Positions 4,304 through 28,799 of a DNA stretch of 64,000 nt are shown here, in pieces (position 1 is the first letter of the stretch; every line of letters starts with the position of its first letter). Made by a program: the position numbers and the translations under genes. Source of the DNA: a virus (lineage: Duplodnaviria; Heunggongvirae; Uroviricota; Caudoviricetes). The stretch lies in IMG/VR virus record IMGVR_UViG_3300043172_000799, positions 28,944 to 92,943 of that record; one strand, written 5' to 3'. The notes beneath the pieces were generated by a model. That model had not been told where the DNA came from. It saw only the letters and a list, made by a program, of their open reading frames with translations, and made no database searches.

Positions 4304-4486
4304 ATGAGTATAAAGGAATTACCAGGATACATTGAAAGTTATATTAAAAAATTACCTCCTTGTAAAAAATGCGGATGTTTATATCACTATGGATATAGAG
4401 ATTTATTAAGTATTGAATCTACGGTGAAAATAAAATGTGATGCTTGCCAGCATGAGAGACTAGTTTTATTTTCAGATATTTTATAG
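4304..4486 (+). CDS. Small Zn-ribbon-like protein
   Basis: 60 aa with CKKC and CDAC. Confidence 0.6.
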   Translation: MSIKELPGYIESYIKKLPPCKKCGCLYHYGYRDLLSIESTVKIKCDACQHERLVLFSDIL

Positions 4487-4656
4487 TTTAATTTCTTTGT
4501 ATTGACTCGTCACTGCATCGGAATTTTAAAGTGGTATGAATATATAAGAAACTTGAAAAGATTGAAATTCGGTTTTTTCAAGTTATTTTCAAAAATAATT
4601 ATTATTTATATTGTTATTTTTGAAAATAAGGTTTATCTTCTTATTAAGAGGTAATT

Positions 4657-5349
4657 ATGTTAAATAGTAAAATTATTGAATTGAAAAAATCAGTTTTGAA
4701 AACAATCTTAAGTTCTGAGAATTGCAATCATGAGCAAGCATTGAAAGCATTTTCAGAATATTCTAAATTAGATGTATGCGAAGCTGAAAAAGAATTTCAT
4801 CTTTACTATGTTAGACATAGTTCAAATTTAGGAATAGTTCCCAACTTAAGAAAGGTTGGTTAAAATGTCAATAACTGAAAAAGAAATTCACTGTCAGAAA
4901 TTGGCACTGGAAGAGATTTCATGTCATAACGATAATAATGTTTTAATTATTGTACAATATAATAATTATTGTATTCCGGTTACTTTCAGAAATATAATAA
5001 ATGAATTTGAATTAAAATTTAATCGTGTTCCTACATATATTGAATTAATTAAAAAATGTGAGAAGATATTAAATATTGATTTATATAAAATAGCATAATA
5101 CAAAAAAGTTGGTTAAAAATGAAATATAATATAATCTTTAATAAGCAAGTAATCCCATATAAAATTGTAATGAAATTAGTATATTTTAACAGATACTTTG
5201 ATAAATTTTATTGTCATTCTTTTTTAGAAAATGGCTTTCGATTAAAAGAGGATTTACTTTTCATACTTGAGACCACGGAACAATTAACAGATTTTACTAA
5301 AAAATTTGATTGCATTATACAGCAAAATAATATTATTATATTTGTATAG
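4657..5349 (+). CDS. Three small hypothetical ORFs (4657-4863, 4856-5098, 5119-5349)
   Basis: Tightly packed or overlapping same-strand ORFs from the track. Confidence 0.55.
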
Positions 5350-7330: not shown

Positions 7331-7804
7331 ATGAAAAGAATTAACGACAGATTGAATTATTTGAATTCGGCTATTCAGAAAACTATGGATTTATATGACA
7401 TGGGAAGTATAAACAATGAAACGTATAAAAAAGATATTGAACACTTAACAATCAGAATAGATGAAATTGAATTCGGAAGTGGTAACAGATACAATAATTT
7501 ATTTGACTGTTCAATAAATGACTTGATAGAATCTATCAAAACATTGGAAGAAATTGAAAGTAATCACGTTGAAAAGATAAGGCAATTAACAGAATTAGAA
7601 AAAACATATCTTCCACTTACTGAAGAAATAACAGAAAAATCAGATTGTATAGAAATTTCTTATGTTCCTAAGTTGGGAACAATTGAAATTTCAGATAATA
7701 ATACAGACAATCACATAGGATTGACTCTTGAAGATATTCAGGAGATCGTACAGATTGCACGGGAAAGGAATTTCAAAATAGCAAATAGAATTGATTTAAA
7801 ATAA
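7331..7804 (+). CDS. Hypothetical coiled-coil protein
   Basis: 157-aa ORF, AAGGAAGG RBS. Confidence 0.75.
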   Translation: MKRINDRLNYLNSAIQKTMDLYDMGSINNETYKKDIEHLTIRIDEIEFGSGNRYNNLFDCSINDLIESIKTLEEIESNHVEKIRQLTELEKTYLPLTEEITEKSDCIEISYVPKLGTIEISDNNTDNHIGLTLEDIQEIVQIARERNFKIANRIDLK

Positions 7805-24445: not shown

Positions 24446-25628
24446 TATACCAAATCCAACAGAATCTTCAGATTTCTACTATTTGATGGATGATTTCTCA
24501 GCAGAGTTTGGGGAAACTCCCATTGATAATTTCAAGAGATACGCCAGAAAAGCTATGGGAGAATACAGAGATCAAACATCTCCAGAAAACACACTAACAA
24601 CAGAAATTACAGATAATGGGTTAGAAGTAAAATTAAAATCGTTTGGGATAACTACAGAAGAAGGAATCAGGAAACAAGCAGGATTATCCGTAGAAGAATG
24701 GGATTGTTCTGCTTTCAGGGTAAAATCCTCCCAGAATGAACAGAACCCTTGGCATTCAGTTAATGCTGAATTCCGAAAGAAGAAGGAGCTTGCATTTCCC
24801 CTAATTCAGCAAGCAGAAGTTAAGATAGAGCAATATGAAAATGTTGCTAGAAAACCATCAGACACAACAGTAAATGTATCTGATCTCCATGCACCGATGC
24901 ATGATGAGAAAGCTATGGATATCTCTATACAGGTTATGAAAGACCTATATCCTTCAACCGTAGTTATAAACGGAGATGCATTAGATCTTACTGATTTCTC
25001 TGATAAGTTTTTAGCGTCTTTGGAATGCCGAAATCAAACACAGAAGGGAATCAATGCCGTTGCAAAGTATATTGGGCAGATAAGACAGGTTTGCCCAGAA
25101 GCTAAAATAGTATTTATGGAAGGGAATCATTCAAATAGAATGAGAAAAGTAATCCTTAAAAATGTAGCAGGAGCTATAGGATTAAAGAGAGCTGATAATC
25201 TTGATGGATATGAAGCCCTTTCCGTACCAAATCTTCTTTGTTTAGATACGCTAGATGTAGAATGGCAACCATATCCTGAAGGTGAGTATTGGGTTAATGA
25301 GAATTTAAGATTTCATCATGGAGAGAAATTAAACTTAAACAATATAGCTAATGAAAGTTTTGTAAACCAAGTAATGGGGCATAATCACAAGCATCTCATG
25401 GTAAGTAGGACAAAGCATATATACAATGGCAGGAAGCAGATATGGGTAGCTTCCTTCGGATGTATGTGTATGATGGATGGGAGTGTTCCTTCAGTAAGTA
25501 GCCATTCTGATTGGCAGAGTGGCTTTGGGGTTGTGTATCATACAGGAACTACTTGCCAGCCTATCCCTATTTACATCGAAGATGGGAAAGCTTTATTTGA
25601 AGGCAAGGTTTATGAGGCTAGAATTTAA
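24417..25628 (+). CDS. Calcineurin-like metallophosphoesterase
   Basis: SDLH, NGD, EGNH, HHG, GHNH motifs in canonical order. Confidence 0.88.
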   Translation: MTRIQWLLGNIPNPTESSDFYYLMDDFSAEFGETPIDNFKRYARKAMGEYRDQTSPENTLTTEITDNGLEVKLKSFGITTEEGIRKQAGLSVEEWDCSAFRVKSSQNEQNPWHSVNAEFRKKKELAFPLIQQAEVKIEQYENVARKPSDTTVNVSDLHAPMHDEKAMDISIQVMKDLYPSTVVINGDALDLTDFSDKFLASLECRNQTQKGINAVAKYIGQIRQVCPEAKIVFMEGNHSNRMRKVILKNVAGAIGLKRADNLDGYEALSVPNLLCLDTLDVEWQPYPEGEYWVNENLRFHHGEKLNLNNIANESFVNQVMGHNHKHLMVSRTKHIYNGRKQIWVASFGCMCMMDGSVPSVSSHSDWQSGFGVVYHTGTTCQPIPIYIEDGKALFEGKVYEARI

Positions 25629-25748
25629 ATATACCCTATAAGGTATAAAAGGAGAATATACCCCATAGGGTATAGGATGGAACATCCACAAGGTCAGTAC
25701 AAGTTGTTTCTTTTCGACGAGAGTTTCTTGTACTGATTTAATTTTTAC

Positions 25749-25862
25749 TTGACAGACCCTCTTTCCTGTGGTATGCTTTATAGGCATATTACAGGAGGAG
25801 GGTTTTTTGTTAGTAGATAAAATATTTTTATGCTTGACAAATACCTATTACTGTGTTAGTAT
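25749..25862 (+). promoter_or_regulatory. Two tandem sigma70 promoters upstream of cas12f
   Basis: TTGACA(25749)-N17-TATGCT and TTGACA(25834)-N17-TAGTAT. Confidence 0.8.
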
Positions 25863-25895
25863 TTAAATAGATCAAAAATATAAAGGAGATATTTA

Positions 25896-27239
25896 GTGGG
25901 CAATGTGTTGACAAAGCTGATACAGATAATACCAGATGATGATATTAATGGTACGTATAAAATTATACGTGATTGGATGTACCATAGTACATCACTTGCA
26001 AATCTTATTATGACTGAGACATATGTAATAACACAAAGAGCAAGAGCCTTGTGCACTGCTCAGCCTGAATTAGATTATTTTCAGGCTGTTGCAAAAATGA
26101 AGGTTGAACGTGTTGGAAGTTATATTGGTAAAGTCACAGAAAAGACAATAGGTAGTAGTTTTGGGTATTGTTTATCTAAATCCCCTAATTATGCAGAAAA
26201 TATTCCAGGGGCTATTCGTACCAAAATAGATAAGGTGGTTGGACAACACTTTCAAGCAGATGTAAAAACCAATGGATTGCTGAAGGGAAATTGTTCTCTT
26301 AGATCTTACAGCCGTAAAAACATGGCTGTATATCTACCCAGTAGTAAGGGTGCTTCTAAGTTTACTTGTGAGGATGGTAACTACTATTTTAGTACCATTA
26401 ACAAATTGCGATTTAAAGTATTTTTAGGTAGGGACAATAGCAAAAACAAATTAGCTATTGACAGGATTATTTCTGGTGAGTATAAAATGCCTGATGTATC
26501 CATAAAGATTAAGGATAATAAAATATTTGTATTGGCACCTATAACAATTGAAGTAACAGATTTGGGATTAGACCCAGAGCTATCAGTTGGTGTAGACTTA
26601 GGAATTACTATTCCTGCGGTGTGTGCATTGTCCACTGGATTAGATAGAGCATTTATAGGTAATGGCACTGAGATAGTCAACTACCGTTTTTCTATGCGAA
26701 GAAAGAGAAAAAACTTACAGAAGAGTTTAACATTGTCTACAGGAGGAAGAGGAAGAGGAAAAAAACTAAAAGCATTAGAAAGGATAAGTAGTACTGAAAG
26801 TAATTGGATAAAGACTAAAAATCATTTAATTTCTAAAAAAATTATTGATTTTGCATTGACAAACGGAGCAGGAACTGTTAAGCTTGAATTATTAGAAGGG
26901 TTCACCAAAGAACATTCTTCCAACATTGTGCTAAAAGATTGGACGTATTATCAGTTAGGAGAGATGATACAGTACAAAGCAAAAATAGCTGGAATTGTAG
27001 TAGTACGGATAGATCCTTATCACACTTCACAGACATGCAACGTGTGTGGACATTCTACTAAAGAGAACAGACCTAAAGGTACAAAAGGTCAAGCATACTT
27101 TAAATGTGTGTCTTGTGGGCATAAAACCAACGCAGACCTTAATGCTGCACGGAATATTGCAAAATCGACAAAGATAGTAACTAAGAAGAAGGAATGCCAG
27201 TACCACAAATTGAAAAGTAACTTAATAGAAGTATCTTAA
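25896..27239 (+). CDS. cas12f: Cas12f-like (TnpB-derived, type V-F) RNA-guided nuclease, 447 aa
   Basis: RuvC-I VGVDLG, RuvC-II VKLEL, Zn finger CNVC/CVSC, RuvC-III NADLNAARNI; Cas12f1-like segments DRIISGEY, GGRGRGKK, WTYYQL..I.YKA..AGI.V..IDP..TSQ.C; adjacent CRISPR array. Confidence 0.88.
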   Translation: MGNVLTKLIQIIPDDDINGTYKIIRDWMYHSTSLANLIMTETYVITQRARALCTAQPELDYFQAVAKMKVERVGSYIGKVTEKTIGSSFGYCLSKSPNYAENIPGAIRTKIDKVVGQHFQADVKTNGLLKGNCSLRSYSRKNMAVYLPSSKGASKFTCEDGNYYFSTINKLRFKVFLGRDNSKNKLAIDRIISGEYKMPDVSIKIKDNKIFVLAPITIEVTDLGLDPELSVGVDLGITIPAVCALSTGLDRAFIGNGTEIVNYRFSMRRKRKNLQKSLTLSTGGRGRGKKLKALERISSTESNWIKTKNHLISKKIIDFALTNGAGTVKLELLEGFTKEHSSNIVLKDWTYYQLGEMIQYKAKIAGIVVVRIDPYHTSQTCNVCGHSTKENRPKGTKGQAYFKCVSCGHKTNADLNAARNIAKSTKIVTKKKECQYHKLKSNLIEVS

Positions 27240-27244
27240 TGATT

Positions 27245-27313
27245 CTTCTGGGGCGGTTTCACGTCCTTATGCTGAGGGAGATTTCTCCGCTCTGGCAACC
27301 ACATATTATTTTT
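27245..27313 (+). ncRNA. Predicted compact tracrRNA / omega-like scaffold
   Basis: Hairpin GGGGCG-[GTTTCA]-CGTCCT whose loop is the reverse complement of the repeat 3' end TGAAAC; second stem 27271-27296; CCACATATT (27299-27307) pairs with repeat nt 16-24; followed by a T-tract. Confidence 0.7.
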
Positions 27314-27442
27314 GCGAAGTGGTTACAAACAACACCTTATTTGCAGTAAGATGAGACACAGAGATGTTTTGGTATATTCTTGTATAGGTTCGCACTTTTA
27401 GTGTTGTAAGTACTTGTTTTGGTGAGAGTTATTTTATAGGCA
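27311..27442 (+). promoter_or_regulatory. CRISPR leader (type I-C-like)
   Basis: AT-rich ~130 bp before repeat 1, with inverted TGCGAA (27313) / TTCGCA (27389) and candidate extended -10 TGGTATATT (27370). Confidence 0.65.
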
Positions 27443-27786
27443 GTCACATCTTACATAGGTGTGTGGATTGAAACAGTATTAGATGGAATAGACAAATCCT
27501 TGACTAAGTCACATCTTACATAGGTGTGTGGATTGAAACGACGTATGATGCGAGAGAAGGCAATCAAGGCAGGGTCACATCTTACATAGGTGTGTGGATT
27601 GAAACAATTCTGATTCTGAGTATTTTATTATCTTTTTGGGTCACATCTTACATAGGTGTGTGGATTGAAACCATGCCCTTTTTTGAGACAGACAACTATT
27701 TTAAAGTCACATCTTACATAGGTGTGTGGATTGAAACTGGTATATTGTTGCAATTGTCTCAATCACGTCACATCTTACATAGGTGT
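27443..27786 (+). CRISPR. CRISPR array: 5 identical 32-nt repeats GTCACATCTTACATAGGTGTGTGGATTGAAAC plus a truncated 6th; 5 spacers (33, 34, 34, 34, 29 nt)
   Basis: Repeats start at 27443, 27508, 27574, 27640, 27706; the copy at 27767 has only the first 20 nt. Spacers: AGTATTAGATGGAATAGACAAATCCTTGACTAA; GACGTATGATGCGAGAGAAGGCAATCAAGGCAGG; AATTCTGATTCTGAGTATTTTATTATCTTTTTGG; CATGCCCTTTTTTGAGACAGACAACTATTTTAAA; TGGTATATTGTTGCAATTGTCTCAATCAC. Confidence 0.98.
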
Positions 27787-27885
27787 ACTGAAAATCTTAG
27801 TAAAGGCGATGACTGGGAAGAAGATTTTGAAGAAGAATTAAAGTTTATGGGCAAACACGCCGATGATATAAGTATAAGAAATTAA
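27787..27885 (+). pseudogene. 3' remnant of an HNH endonuclease gene fused to the truncated last repeat
   Basis: Reads TENLSKGDDWEEDFEEELK...*, matching the C-terminal N..K.D.WEE motif of the neighbouring HNH (DNLEKLDKWEEDL). Confidence 0.65.
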
Positions 27886-27888
27886 AAA

Positions 27889-27940
27889 CTGTCTTTTCTC
27901 TCGCGCGAGACTGGCAGAAATGTCAGGAGAGAGGAGACAG
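27889..27940 (+). promoter_or_regulatory. Structured 5' leader sequestering the RBS of the HNH gene
   Basis: 14-bp stem CTGTCTTTTCTCTC/GAGAGAGGAGACAG covering AGGAGA, enclosing hairpin CTGGCA-GAAA-TGTCAG. Confidence 0.7.
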
Positions 27941-27947
27941 GATTTAT

Positions 27948-28799
27948 ATGACAGAAGAAAAATATCTCATTACAGAAAAAGGCAGAGAATGCCCTAAATG
28001 TGGTGAGTTTAAAGAATGGGAAGAATTTGGCAAGAGAAAAGGTAGACCATCTGGATATGCCAGCAGTTGTAAAGAATGTGGCAGGAAGTATGCTAGGAAA
28101 TATTCAAAAAGTAATAAACAAAAAATAAATCAATATGCAAAAGAGTACCGAAGTAACAACAAAGAGCAAATAGAGGAGTATATGGTTGGCTACCGTACTA
28201 CAAATGCTGAGAATACTAAAGAGTATAATAAAAGATATAAGGAAGAAAATAAAGAGTCTCTTAAAGAACATTACTTAGAGAATTTTGAAGCTACAAGACA
28301 TATTAGAGAGCAATATTATTGTAATAATAAGGAAGTGATGCAGTCTAATAATAAGAGATACCGTCACAACAACAAAGAAGGAATAAAAGCTAAAGCCAAA
28401 AGATATGATCTGGAAAATAAAGCTAAACGAAATTATAGAAATAAGGAGAGACGTAAATCTGATCTTAATTTTAAAATAGTTACCAGCTTACGCTCCAGAA
28501 TGGGTAATGCTTTGAAAGCTCAAAATTCTGAGAAATTTTTTCATGCATTAGATATATTAGGATGTTCTCCAGCAGAGTGTGTTAGTCATCTGGAAAAACA
28601 ATTCACAGAGGGTATGTCTTGGAGTAATCATGCAAAAGACGGATGGCATATAGATCATATTAGACCTTGTGCTTCTTTTGACCTAACTATTCCTGAACAG
28701 CAAAAGTTATGCTTCCACTACACAAATTTACAACCTTTATGGTGGTATGATAATTTAGAAAAACTGGATAAATGGGAAGAAGACTTAGATAATGAATAA
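27948..28799 (+). CDS. Free-standing HNH homing endonuclease
   Basis: N-terminal CPKC...CKEC, YRxNNKE repeats, WHIDHIRPCASFDL...CFHYTNLQPLW..DN core. Confidence 0.92.
   Translation: MTEEKYLITEKGRECPKCGEFKEWEEFGKRKGRPSGYASSCKECGRKYARKYSKSNKQKINQYAKEYRSNNKEQIEEYMVGYRTTNAENTKEYNKRYKEENKESLKEHYLENFEATRHIREQYYCNNKEVMQSNNKRYRHNNKEGIKAKAKRYDLENKAKRNYRNKERRKSDLNFKIVTSLRSRMGNALKAQNSEKFFHALDILGCSPAECVSHLEKQFTEGMSWSNHAKDGWHIDHIRPCASFDLTIPEQQKLCFHYTNLQPLWWYDNLEKLDKWEEDLDNE

What the first reader, a model, noticed from the sequence alone, without database searches (positions are those of the whole stretch)
27245..27313. Very compact predicted tracrRNA with a loop pseudoknot to the repeat 3' end
Seen: right after the cas12f stop, hairpin GGGGCG/CGTCCT presents loop GTTTCA, the exact reverse complement of the repeat's last 6 nt (TGAAAC). 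A bulged stem (27271-27296) follows, then CCACATATT, which pairs over 9 bp (3 G-U) with repeat nt 16-24, then a T-run. Established: Cas12f1 guides pair the tracrRNA with the repeat in two places, including a 5' stem-loop pseudoknot, and known ones are well over 100 nt. Inference: this is a naturally minimal ~60-70 nt scaffold that adapted an omega-RNA fold to a type I-C repeat, which would be useful for compact genome editors.
Basis: partly seen in the sequence, partly recalled or inferred. Interest (0 to 1): 0.8.

Follow-up and report, generated by a model that had tools for sequence, protein, structure and literature searches.

The report
Compact phage Cas12f tracrRNA, confirmed
The short RNA-like element just after a phage's miniature Cas12f gene is very probably its real guide-scaffold RNA (tracrRNA): it has the known Cas12f design in an unusually short form and is matched to a CRISPR array, leader included, of the host-type I-C kind.

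Summary
Observation confirmed.

On its own the 9-bp pairing is no better than chance. Comparison makes it real. Three homologous loci and about 40 further phage Cas12f loci carry the same module on the gene strand. Both contacts change with each locus's own repeat (e.g. loop GTTCCA with repeat end TGGAAC). No permutation reached the observed score (0/20,000 and 0/5,000).

The architecture is known. Published OsCas12f, RhCas12f, Al3Cas12f and uCas guides have the same order: pseudoknot hairpin, stem 2, anti-repeat. Three things differ here:
- Stem 2 is only 26-28 nt and there is no stem 3/4, so the core is 58 nt.
- A conserved extra 5' hairpin (27227-27249, spanning the stop codon) makes about 81-87 nt the likelier natural size.
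- The repeat and the 132-nt leader are of type I-C kind, and the phage has no Cas1.

Cores of 54-61 nt are common in this phage family. No RNA data could be obtained.

The parts
25896..27239 (+). cas12f gene, 447 aa, type V-F1-like. The RuvC acidic residues and the zinc-ribbon cysteines are conserved.
   Evidence: Pfam PF07282 Cas12f1-like TNB, E 6.8e-23. Best solved relatives: 8hr5 at 6e-64, Al3Cas12f 9nzo at 3e-56, RhCas12f 9nzp at 5e-51. D234, E331, D414, C381, C384, C404 and C407 are invariant among 11 homologues. Single copy in the 168-kb phage, which has no TnpA.
27227..27249 (+). Extra 5' hairpin (AGAAG...CTTCT plus an inner 3 bp) that abuts the pseudoknot hairpin. Its loop contains the cas12f stop codon. 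Probably the 5' part of the natural tracrRNA.
   Evidence: RNAfold -5.9 kcal/mol, 1.5% of shuffles as good. A hairpin of 4 bp or more abuts the pseudoknot hairpin in 13 of 21 modules, with unrelated sequences, against 2.5 expected. Published Al3Cas12f and MG119-2 sgRNAs begin with such a hairpin.
27250..27267 (+). Pseudoknot hairpin: stem GGGGCG/CGTCCT. The loop GTTTCA (27256-27261) pairs with repeat nt 27-32, TGAAAC, just 5' of the spacer.
   Evidence: Covariation of loop with repeat end across 18 non-redundant modules: 95 of 108 positions against a permutation mean of 73.2 (sd 3.2), 0 of 20,000. Stem: 5 of 6 pairs show changes on both sides and 99.4% of cells are paired.
27271..27296 (+). 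Stem 2, a bulged hairpin with a conserved GAG/CTC core and loop ATTT. Here only 26-28 nt, against about 54-68 nt in L006 and L009 and about 60-70 nt in published guides.
   Evidence: RNAalifold on the 4 close loci. 7 of 9 pairs show changes on both sides in 30 distinct sequences. Length comparison.
27299..27307 (+). Anti-repeat A, CCACATATT, pairs with repeat nt 16-24, GGTGTGTGG. A 2-nt linker (AT) separates this target from the pseudoknot target.
   Evidence: It sits at the same position in L006 (CTACACACT), L008 (CCATACATT) and L009 (CCATATGAC against GTCGTATGG). Permutation test over 20 modules: 157 against 110 (sd 6), 0 of 5,000. In 16 of the 20 modules the helix ends 6-8 nt before the repeat's 3' end.
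27309..27313 (+). T-run after the anti-repeat. A possible 3' end of the tracrRNA, but not a canonical terminator.
   Evidence: Seen in the sequence. The terminator scan did not call it. Absent in L008 (TTT only).
27311..27442 (+). CRISPR leader of type I-C kind, with TGCGAA (27313-27318) and TTCGCA (27389-27394). The latter lies exactly 48 nt before the first repeat.
   Evidence: It aligns with the leader of the true I-C locus MT836291.1 (L219), which has GCGAACC...GTTTCGCAC and TTTCGCA-N48-repeat. A Megasphaera I-C leader also carries TGCGAA motifs.
27346..27357 (+). Element B, GTAAGATGAGAC, complementary to repeat nt 1-12 at 11 of 12 positions. It lies inside the leader and its role is unexplained.
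   Evidence: (I25). At the homologous position: L006 GTAAGTTGTGAC, L008 TGTAGGGTG (2 G-U), L009 AACTGCAA against repeat TTGCAGTT. Duplex energy -11.7 kcal/mol.
27443..27798 (+). CRISPR array: five identical 32-nt repeats of I-C type (stem CACATC/GGTGTG followed by an 11-nt tail TGGATTGAAAC). Spacers are 33, 34, 34, 34 and 29 nt. The sixth repeat is truncated.
   Evidence: Repeat hairpin -7.3 kcal/mol.

Best explanation
The interval is the tracrRNA (guide scaffold) gene of a phage-borne type V-F CRISPR-Cas12f system.

The RNA is read from the + strand just after cas12f. It folds into a small 5' hairpin (27227-27249), a pseudoknot hairpin (27250-27267) and a short bulged stem 2 (27271-27296), and ends in a single-stranded tail (27299-27307).

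The tail pairs with nt 16-24 of a repeat in the array transcript. The hairpin loop pairs with the repeat's last six nt, directly 5' of the spacer. This rebuilds in two pieces the scaffold that a Cas12f dimer binds, and the spacer is presented for DNA targeting next to a 5' PAM.

The design is that of the characterised Os/Rh/Al3/uCas Cas12f guides, with stem 2 cut to 26-28 nt and no stem 3/4.

The array and its 132-nt leader are of the type I-C kind, and the phage has no adaptation genes. New spacers are therefore probably supplied by a host I-C Cas1-Cas2-Cas4.

Shown here: the sequence elements, their conservation, and covariation of both contacts and both stems. Inferred: that the RNA is expressed, where it starts and ends, that it binds the protein, that the complex cleaves DNA, and where spacers come from.
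For: - Layout. The order gene, module, leader, array recurs in all three DNA-recoverable close homologues, at 50-60% protein identity (L006, L007/L008, L009).
- Compensatory changes. L009's repeat ends TGGAAC and its loop is GTTCCA. Its tail CCATATGAC matches its repeat GTCGTATGG.
- Wider family. A covariance model built from 5 loci finds 44 modules in 84 sources, all on the gene strand. 64 of 80 related phage loci have mini-arrays beside the gene.
- Permutation tests. Loop against own repeat end: 95 of 108 against 73.2 (sd 3.2), 0 of 20,000. Tail against own repeat: 157 against 110 (sd 6), 0 of 5,000. The geometry is mostly fixed, with the helix ending 6-8 nt from the repeat end in 16 of 20 modules.
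- Stems. 94.4% of cells paired, 12 of 15 pairs with changes on both sides, 0 of 500 shuffles. The slid controls give 37-44% paired. RNAalifold on the 4 close loci finds the same helices independently.
- Tandem modules. L158, L167 and L177 each carry two tracr-plus-array modules, each tail matched to its own repeat.
- Published guides of relatives have the same order. Al3Cas12f: 5' hairpin, GGGCGC-GUUGGA-GCGCCU, stem 2, anti-repeat, with crRNA ...UA-UCCAAC. Os and Rh guides start at the pseudoknot hairpin (PMC13186708 supplement).
- The protein is a Cas12f1 relative with intact catalytic residues.
- The RNA folds as three hairpins with a free tail. Cofolding with repeat nt 13-32 gives the predicted duplex.
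Against: - No expression data.
- The promoter-like site at 27210-27237 is a 9/12 match in a region where such matches are not above chance (7 found, 10 expected). It would start the RNA near 27244, inside the 5' hairpin.
- The T-run is not a canonical terminator and is missing in L008.
- The anti-repeat duplex is weak (9 bp with 3 G-U, -9.6 kcal/mol). It must compete with the repeat's own hairpin (-7.3 kcal/mol), and with a full-length repeat the cofold keeps that hairpin.
- In RhCas12f the distal part of stem 2 is needed for activity (PMC13186708), so a stem 2 this short could mean weak activity.
- The alignment used for the pair counts was fitted to the model, and many of the loci are related to one another.
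Confidence: 0.85

Rival explanations
1. The module is real, but the natural tracrRNA is much longer than about 90 nt. Either it starts well inside the cas12f coding region, as a TnpB omega-RNA does, or it runs on through the T-run into the leader to include element B (27346-27357). B would then pair with repeat nt 1-12 and help open the repeat's own hairpin. 'Very compact' would then be wrong for the natural RNA.
For: Element B is complementary to repeat nt 1-12 at 11 of 12 positions. It is positionally conserved and changes with the repeat in L009 (AACTGCAA against TTGCAGTT) and by G-U-preserving changes in L008. The B duplex is the strongest of the three contacts at -11.7 kcal/mol. The T-run is not a proper terminator and is absent in L008. 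TnpB omega-RNAs overlap the gene's 3' end (established knowledge).
Against: The sequence between the stop codon and the module is not conserved apart from the abutting hairpin. Second modules in L158, L167 and L177 start 1-2 nt after the previous array, leaving no room for 5' stems. In L135, L143, L153 and L137 the tail is only 3-16 nt from the first repeat, so no B-type domain exists there. The region holding B aligns with a true I-C leader. Published Os and Rh guides start at the pseudoknot hairpin and end at the anti-repeat, and they work.
Confidence: 0.2
2. The array mainly serves the host's type I-C machinery, as a phage mini-array loaded into host Cascade or as an RNA decoy against it. 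The Cas12f-linked module would then have only a secondary or regulatory role.
For: The repeat has the full I-C layout (hairpin plus 11-nt tail). Its nt 16-32 are identical to those of a true I-C repeat, and the leader is I-C-like. The phage has no Cas1, Cas8c or Cas5d. Phage mini-arrays and repeat decoys are known (review PMC11656645).
Against: The module next to cas12f co-varies with the repeat, which only makes sense if Cas12f uses these repeats. L009's repeat has lost the I-C hairpin yet keeps both tracr contacts. Dual use is not excluded.
Confidence: 0.06
3. It is the 3' part of a TnpB omega-RNA, or the right end of an IS200/IS605 element that happens to sit beside an unrelated array.
For: The protein matches OrfB_IS605 weakly (PF01385, below cut-off), and many database homologues are labelled transposase.
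Against: The phage has no TnpA and only one copy of the gene. The best solved relatives are Cas12f effectors. The module co-varies with the repeat. The gene-module-array unit travels together in different phage contexts.
Confidence: 0.03
4. The hairpins are only 3'-UTR or terminator structures of cas12f, and the complementarity to the repeat is chance.
For: The 9-bp tail helix alone is within chance. The fold z-score is only -1.5.
Against: No U-tract follows either hairpin. The covariation and permutation results rule out chance.
Confidence: 0.02

Closest known systems
Al3Cas12f / Cas12f-MG119 and uCas guide RNAs (PMC13186708; bioRxiv 10.1101/2023.02.03.527072)
   Same: The gene is followed by the tracrRNA and then the array, with no other cas genes. 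The RNA order is small 5' hairpin, pseudoknot hairpin whose 6-nt loop pairs with the repeat's last 6 nt, stem 2 with a GAG/CUC core and a bulge, a short A-rich linker, and a 9-nt anti-repeat. The crRNA reads anti-repeat target, 2 nt, pseudoknot target, spacer. There is no stem 4. Locus L138 has the same loop (GTTGGA) and repeat end (TCCAAC/T) as Al3Cas12f and uCas.
   Different: Stem 2 is 26-28 nt here against about 65 nt, which gives a 58-nt core (81 nt with the 5' hairpin) against a tracr part of about 107 nt (134-nt sgRNA). The repeat is 32 nt and of I-C type with an I-C-type leader, not the 36-nt ...ATATCCAAC repeat. The protein is 447 aa and only distantly similar (E 3e-56).
OsCas12f1 and RhCas12f1 guide RNAs (PDB 9nzq, 9nzp, 8j12; PMC13186708)
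   Same: The guide starts at the pseudoknot hairpin, followed by stem 2 (UCGAG... or CUGAGGG...CCACUCGG), with the anti-repeat at the 3' end.
   Different: They have extra stem(s) between stem 2 and the anti-repeat, and a long stem 2 whose distal part RhCas12f needs. The scaffolds are 131-140 nt.
Un1Cas12f1 (Cas14a1) tracrRNA
   Same: A hairpin loop pairs with the repeat's 3' end (R:AR-1) and a 3' anti-repeat pairs further 5' (R:AR-2). One RNA binds a protein dimer. This is from my knowledge of the published structures and was not tested here.
   Different: Un1 has two further stems 5' of the pseudoknot hairpin. Its tracrRNA is about 140 nt and its locus has cas1, cas2 and cas4. Protein similarity is weak (7l48, E 2.6e-28).
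ISDra2 TnpB omega-RNA
   Same: A pseudoknot links an upstream element to the segment just 5' of the guide. The RNA gene lies at the 3' end of the nuclease gene (established knowledge).
   Different: The omega-RNA is one continuous RNA ending at a transposon end. Here the scaffold is split into tracrRNA and crRNA, and there is no transposon. Protein similarity is very weak (8bf8, E 3e-7).
Type I-C CRISPR arrays and leaders (e.g. MT836291.1; Megasphaera UMGS111)
   Same: A 32-nt repeat starting GTC and ending TGGATTGAAAC, with the hairpin in the same place. Spacers are 33-35 nt. The leader has GCGAA / TTCGC motifs and TTCGCA 48 nt before the first repeat.
   Different: No class 1 cas genes are found in the phage. 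The array is coupled to a class 2 effector through a matched tracrRNA.

Membership tests
Type V-F (Cas12f1) tracrRNA of the Os/Rh/Al3/uCas architecture | Encoded beside a cas12f gene that has an intact RuvC and zinc ribbon | tested here: met
   PF07282 at 6.8e-23. PDB hits to Cas12f effectors down to 6e-64. Catalytic D/E/D and four Cys invariant.
Type V-F (Cas12f1) tracrRNA of the Os/Rh/Al3/uCas architecture | CRISPR array adjacent and in the same orientation | tested here: met
   Five exact repeats starting 204 nt after the stop codon, + strand.
Type V-F (Cas12f1) tracrRNA of the Os/Rh/Al3/uCas architecture | Hairpin whose loop pairs with the repeat's 3' end (pseudoknot) | tested here: met
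   6 of 6 Watson-Crick pairs in the window. Co-varies across 18 modules, 0 of 20,000 permutations.
Type V-F (Cas12f1) tracrRNA of the Os/Rh/Al3/uCas architecture | Stem 2 with a conserved GAG/CUC core and a bulge, directly after the pseudoknot hairpin | tested here: met
   The same motif is in the published guides. It is much shorter here.
Type V-F (Cas12f1) tracrRNA of the Os/Rh/Al3/uCas architecture | 3' anti-repeat pairing with the repeat just 5' of the pseudoknot target | tested here: met
   9 bp to nt 16-24 with a 2-nt linker. Co-varies, 0 of 5,000 permutations.
Type V-F (Cas12f1) tracrRNA of the Os/Rh/Al3/uCas architecture | Expressed as a stable small RNA that binds the Cas12f dimer and supports PAM-dependent DNA cleavage | not testable with these tools
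   Only one DNA run (marine sediment) holds the sequence.
TnpB omega-RNA / IS200-IS605 element | Transposon context: TnpA or element ends, guide directly after the scaffold, usually several copies | tested here: not met
   No Y1 transposase and a single copy in the 168-kb genome. The scaffold is followed by a leader and an array, not by a single guide.
Type I-C CRISPR array | 32-nt repeat with a stem and an 11-nt 3' tail ...TGGATTGAAAC, and 33-35-nt spacers | tested here: met
   Nt 16-32 are identical to the repeat of the I-C locus MT836291.1.
Type I-C CRISPR array | I-C-type leader | tested here: met
   Aligns with the MT836291.1 leader and shares TTCGCA-N48-repeat. This rests on one clear and one partial comparison.
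Type I-C CRISPR array | Adjacent cas3, cas5, cas8c, cas7, cas4, cas1 and cas2 | tested here: not met
   No Cas1, Cas8c or Cas5d in the whole phage record. The Cas8c control rang in no reference genome, so that one blank is weak.

The most novel reading that the evidence does not exclude
Phage Cas12f lineages repeatedly retune a very small tracrRNA (two short contacts of 6 and about 9 nt) to whatever class 1 repeat their host uses: type I-C here, and I-B-like and I-E-like repeats in other phage loci. This would let the phage take over the host's array type together with its leader. It could then gain spacers through the host's Cas1-Cas2-Cas4, whose 5' PAM and spacer polarity suit a Cas12 enzyme. 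It might even load host pre-crRNAs into the phage nuclease, since nt 16-32 of a true I-C repeat are identical to the phage repeat.
Probability: 0.2. Interest if true: 0.8.

Novelty: new variant of a known kind. Interest (0 to 1): 0.55.

Why it matters
The long guide RNA is one of the main practical limits of miniature Cas12f editors. Characterised natural guides are 129-156 nt, and even an engineered scaffold published in 2026 is 136 nt. This locus and its relatives are natural systems whose conserved scaffold is 58-81 nt. With the 17 repeat nt and a tetraloop that gives about 80-100 nt, paired with a 447-aa protein. It also shows which parts evolution treats as dispensable: distal stem 2 and stems 3/4.

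Biologically, this is a class 2 effector coupled by a matched tracrRNA to an array and leader of class 1 (I-C) type, in a phage without adaptation genes. That makes one question directly testable: can a phage nuclease live off the host's spacer-acquisition machinery or its crRNAs?

Tried and rejected
- An exact-pattern scan for the pseudoknot hairpin (GGGGCGGTTNCACGTCC) in viral and metagenome contigs gave only chance matches apart from the known loci.
- The first related-loci search with the single protein found nothing in viral contigs. The alignment-based search worked.
- Rfam gave no meaningful match in 25500-28200.
- RNAalifold on the leader region predicted no consensus structure, because MAFFT could not align the variable-length leaders. 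I first read the TGCGAA/TTCGCA pair as a second RNA domain of the tracrRNA. I dropped that reading once the region aligned with a true I-C leader.
- Protospacer searches found no target, so no PAM could be derived. I searched the spacers against the phage's own genome and all fetched loci, against GenBank phages (which matched only on repeats) and against IMG/VR with one spacer core.
- Sequencing runs: no RNA holder is listed, and only one DNA run (marine sediment) holds the sequence.
- MAFFT misaligned distant modules, so covariation with the repeat was scored with my own scripts and not with the count of structure pairs.
- The 'Cas12 hacker' preprint and the Cas-delta paper turned out not to bear on this locus.
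- One paper reading failed on a search term that was too short.

Full report
**What is in the window.**
The window lies in a 168,384-bp virus record that CheckV rates as complete. An ORF at 25896-27239 (+) encodes a 447-aa protein with the Cas12f1-like TNB domain (PF07282, 6.8e-23). Its best solved relatives are Cas12f effectors: 8hr5 at 6e-64, Al3Cas12f 9nzo/9nzr at 3e-56, RhCas12f 9nzp at 5e-51, then Os, As and Un1Cas12f. ISDra2 TnpB scores only 3e-7. The RuvC D/E/D residues and four zinc-ribbon cysteines are invariant among 11 homologues.

A CRISPR array starts 204 nt after the stop codon. It has five exact 32-nt repeats, GTCACATCTTACATAGGTGTGTGGATTGAAAC, spacers of 33-34 nt, and a truncated sixth repeat. 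The phage carries one copy of the gene and no Cas1, Cas8c, Cas5d or TnpA.

**Checking the observation.**
- the hairpin GGGGCG/CGTCCT at 27250-27267, with loop GTTTCA that is the exact reverse complement of repeat nt 27-32;
- the bulged stem at 27271-27296;
- CCACATATT at 27299-27307, which pairs with repeat nt 16-24 (9 bp, 3 G-U);
- a T-run at 27309-27313.

RNAfold gives these two hairpins. Taken alone the evidence is thin. 439 of 500 shuffles of the intergenic region contain a helix of 9 bp or more against this G/T-rich repeat, and the fold z-score is -1.5. Only the exact loop match is unlikely by itself.

**Comparative evidence.**
Four homologues share 50-60% protein identity (P0002-P0005). 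DNA could be fetched for three of them. All three show the same order of gene, module, leader and array (L006, L007/L008, L009).

L009 is the informative one because its repeat has diverged to GTTGCAGTTTACGCGGTCGTATGGATTGGAAC. Its hairpin loop is GTTCCA, matching the new repeat end TGGAAC. Its tail is CCATATGAC, matching the new nt 16-24, GTCGTATGG.

An alignment-based search of IMG/VR returned 80 more distant phage loci at 31-44% identity, and 64 of them have mini-arrays beside the gene. A covariance model built from five loci found 44 modules in 84 sources, all on the gene strand. Many are only 54-61 nt long.

On that alignment 94.4% of cells pair and 12 of 15 pairs have changes on both sides. 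No shuffle of 500 reaches this, and slid controls pair at 37-44%. The caveat is that the alignment was fitted to the model. RNAalifold on the four close loci finds the same two helices independently.

For 20 curated modules I scored the two contacts to each module's own repeat against permuted repeats:

| Contact | Observed | Permutation mean (sd) | Permutations reaching observed |
|---|---|---|---|
| Loop against last 6 nt of repeat | 95 of 108 | 73.2 (3.2) | 0 of 20,000 |
| Tail anti-repeat helix score | 157 | 110 (6) | 0 of 5,000 |

In 16 of the 20 modules the anti-repeat helix ends 6-8 nt from the repeat's 3' end. That leaves a linker of up to 2 nt before the 6-nt pseudoknot target.

Distinct loop and repeat-end pairs include GTTTCA/TGAAAC, GTTCCA/TGGAAC, GTTGGA/TCCAAC, GTTCAG/CTGAAC, ATTTTG/CAAAAT, ATTTAC/GTAAAT and GTTTTG/CAAAAC. 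L158, L167 and L177 carry two tandem tracr-plus-array modules, each tail matched to its own repeat. The CnCas12f1-like loci (L192 group) fit the loop rule poorly, at 3 of 6 positions.

**What it is.**
The supplement of PMC13186708 lists working guides of relatives.
- OsCas12f and RhCas12f guides begin at a hairpin (AGGGCCGACUUCCCGGCCC; ACGGCUGAUUUAGCAGCCG). A stem 2 with a GAG/CUC core follows, then extra stems, then the anti-repeat.
- The Al3Cas12f guide has a small 5' hairpin, GGGCGC-GUUGGA-GCGCCU, a long stem 2, an A-run and a 9-nt anti-repeat. Its crRNA part is UCAAGUGAA-UA-UCCAAC.

This is the window's architecture. Only the sizes differ. Stem 2 is 26-28 nt in the window and L008, 54-68 nt in L006 and L009, and about 65 nt in Al3Cas12f. 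There is no stem 3/4.

The uCas preprint describes the same gene-tracr-array layout with 36-nt repeats ending ATATCCAAC and no other cas genes. It reports that the 5' stem can be removed without loss of activity, but that a single-nucleotide kink cannot. PMC13186708 reports that deleting distal stem 2 is harmless in OsCas12f but harmful in RhCas12f.

**The 5' boundary.**
Directly upstream of the pseudoknot hairpin the window has another hairpin at 27227-27249 (-5.9 kcal/mol, 1.5% of shuffles as good). Its loop holds the stop codon. A hairpin of 4 bp or more ending 0-1 nt before the pseudoknot hairpin occurs in 13 of 21 modules, with unrelated sequences, against 2.5 expected (p about 6e-8). It corresponds to the 5' hairpin of the Al3Cas12f and MG119-2 guides.

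The conserved RNA is therefore 27227-27307, which is 81 nt, or 87 nt with the T-run. The 58-nt core (27250-27307) is the part that published work on relatives suggests is sufficient.

The promoter-like site at 27210-27237 is weak, and such sites are not above chance in this region. It would start the RNA near 27244. The true ends remain open.

**The region between tracrRNA and array.**
I first took the conserved inverted pair TGCGAA (27313-27318) and TTCGCA (27389-27394) for a second RNA domain. It varies in a way that keeps the two arms complementary: CGCGAACC/GGTTCGCG in L009 and ATATGCGAAC/GTTCGCATAT in L006.

MT836291.1 changed that reading. It is a true I-C locus with Cas8c, Cas7, Cas4, Cas1 and Cas2, then a leader and 31 repeats. 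Its repeat, GTCACACCCTTCGTGGGTGTGTGGATTGAAAC, shares nt 1-6 and nt 16-32 with the window's repeat. Its leader has GCGAACC...GTTTCGCAC, and TTTCGCA exactly 48 nt before the first repeat, as in the window. It aligns with the leaders of L006 and L009. A Megasphaera I-C locus, with Cas8c about 1.3 kb from the array, also has TGCGAA motifs in its leader.

So 27311-27442 is an I-C-type leader that was taken up together with the array.

**An unexplained element.**
Inside the leader sits element B (27346-27357), complementary to repeat nt 1-12 at 11 of 12 positions. It is positionally conserved and changes with the repeat in L009. Its predicted duplex (-11.7 kcal/mol) is stronger than the anti-repeat's (-9.6) and than the repeat's own hairpin (-7.3). 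It could help open the I-C-type hairpin, or it could be a leader feature acting at the DNA level. I leave it unexplained.

**Mechanism.**
The steps supported by sequence evidence are given above. The rest is inference.

A Cas12f dimer binds the tracrRNA. The tail and the loop clamp the 3' 17 nt of a repeat, and the following spacer directs cleavage of DNA next to a 5' PAM. With a full-length repeat the cofold keeps the repeat's own hairpin, whereas with nt 13-32 it forms the predicted duplex. Trimming, or help from B or the protein, is therefore probably needed.

Type I and type V systems share crRNA polarity and a 5' PAM on the non-target strand, and both favour T-rich motifs (established knowledge). 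Spacers acquired by a host I-C Cas1-Cas2-Cas4 would therefore be usable by this nuclease. The phage's lack of Cas1 fits that idea.

**Novelty.**
The fold is known. The new points are:
- the very short natural form, which is widespread in this uncharacterised phage group;
- the coupling of a class 2 effector to a class 1-type array and leader through a retuned tracrRNA.

I found no paper describing either point, but the library searched is incomplete. Other phage loci carry repeats that I judge, from my own knowledge of typical repeats, to be I-B-like (L192-L197, L201) or I-E-like (L139), each with its own module. This hints at a general habit.

**Limits.**
No protospacers were found, so no PAM could be derived. 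Many of the compared loci are related, so the counts overstate the number of independent events.

Other first-reader notes on this same locus exist in the scan. Their readings of an I-C-like leader and of a self-contained system without adaptation genes agree with my tests.

Noticed in passing
L192-L197, L201 and L139 (related phage loci): Other phage Cas12f loci have arrays whose repeats look like host class 1 repeats. L192-L197 and L201 have clostridial I-B-like repeats (e.g. ...ATGAGATGTTTTTAAAT, GTTTTATATTAACTATGTGATATGTAAAT). L139 has an I-E-like repeat (...CGCGGGGATGAACC). Each has its own tracr module. The type assignment is from my knowledge of typical repeats and was not tested.
   Followed up: partly
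L158, L167, L177 (about 4380-4840 in each): Two tandem tracrRNA-plus-mini-array modules follow one cas12f gene. The second module starts 1-2 nt after the first array's degenerate last repeat. Each anti-repeat matches its own repeat (TTTGTGTAAT against ATTACACAAA; ATCTATGTAAAT against TTTACATAGGT).
   Followed up: partly
L133: 2828-2960, 4320-4460, 5314-5370: Three tracr modules (loop GTTCAG) are each followed directly by very short repeats of about 19 nt (TATATAAGAAGGACTGAAC) separated by only 11-16 nt. This would be an unusually compressed array, if it is one.
   Followed up: no
window 27346-27357: Element B is an inverted copy of repeat nt 1-12 inside the leader. It is conserved in position and co-varies with the repeat in L009. 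Its role is unknown.
   Followed up: partly
window 27738-27750 and 27370-27382: The first 13 nt of the short last spacer (TGGTATATTGTTG) match the leader (TGGTATATTCTTG) at 12 of 13 positions (family D20). This could be chance or a duplication. The leader copy overlaps a promoter-like extended -10 element.
   Followed up: no
window 25628-25674: Two 20-nt near-identical palindromic units (AATATACCCTATAAGGTATA and AATATACCCCATAGGGTATA) lie just upstream of two strong promoter-like sites (25749 and 25834, 10 of 12 matches each) ahead of cas12f. They may be an operator.
   Followed up: no
L213: about 7740-7793 (MAG labelled Desulfotomaculum): A solitary I-C-like repeat (...CTCTCATAGGTGTGTGGATTGAAAC) sits about 20 nt upstream of an ORF start, with no array around it.
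   Followed up: no
L008: 1940-1982: A degenerate extra repeat copy (CCCTTACACAGGTGTGGATTAAAAC) lies 7 nt before the first full repeat. The repeat-proximal part of these leaders may derive from decayed repeats.
   Followed up: no
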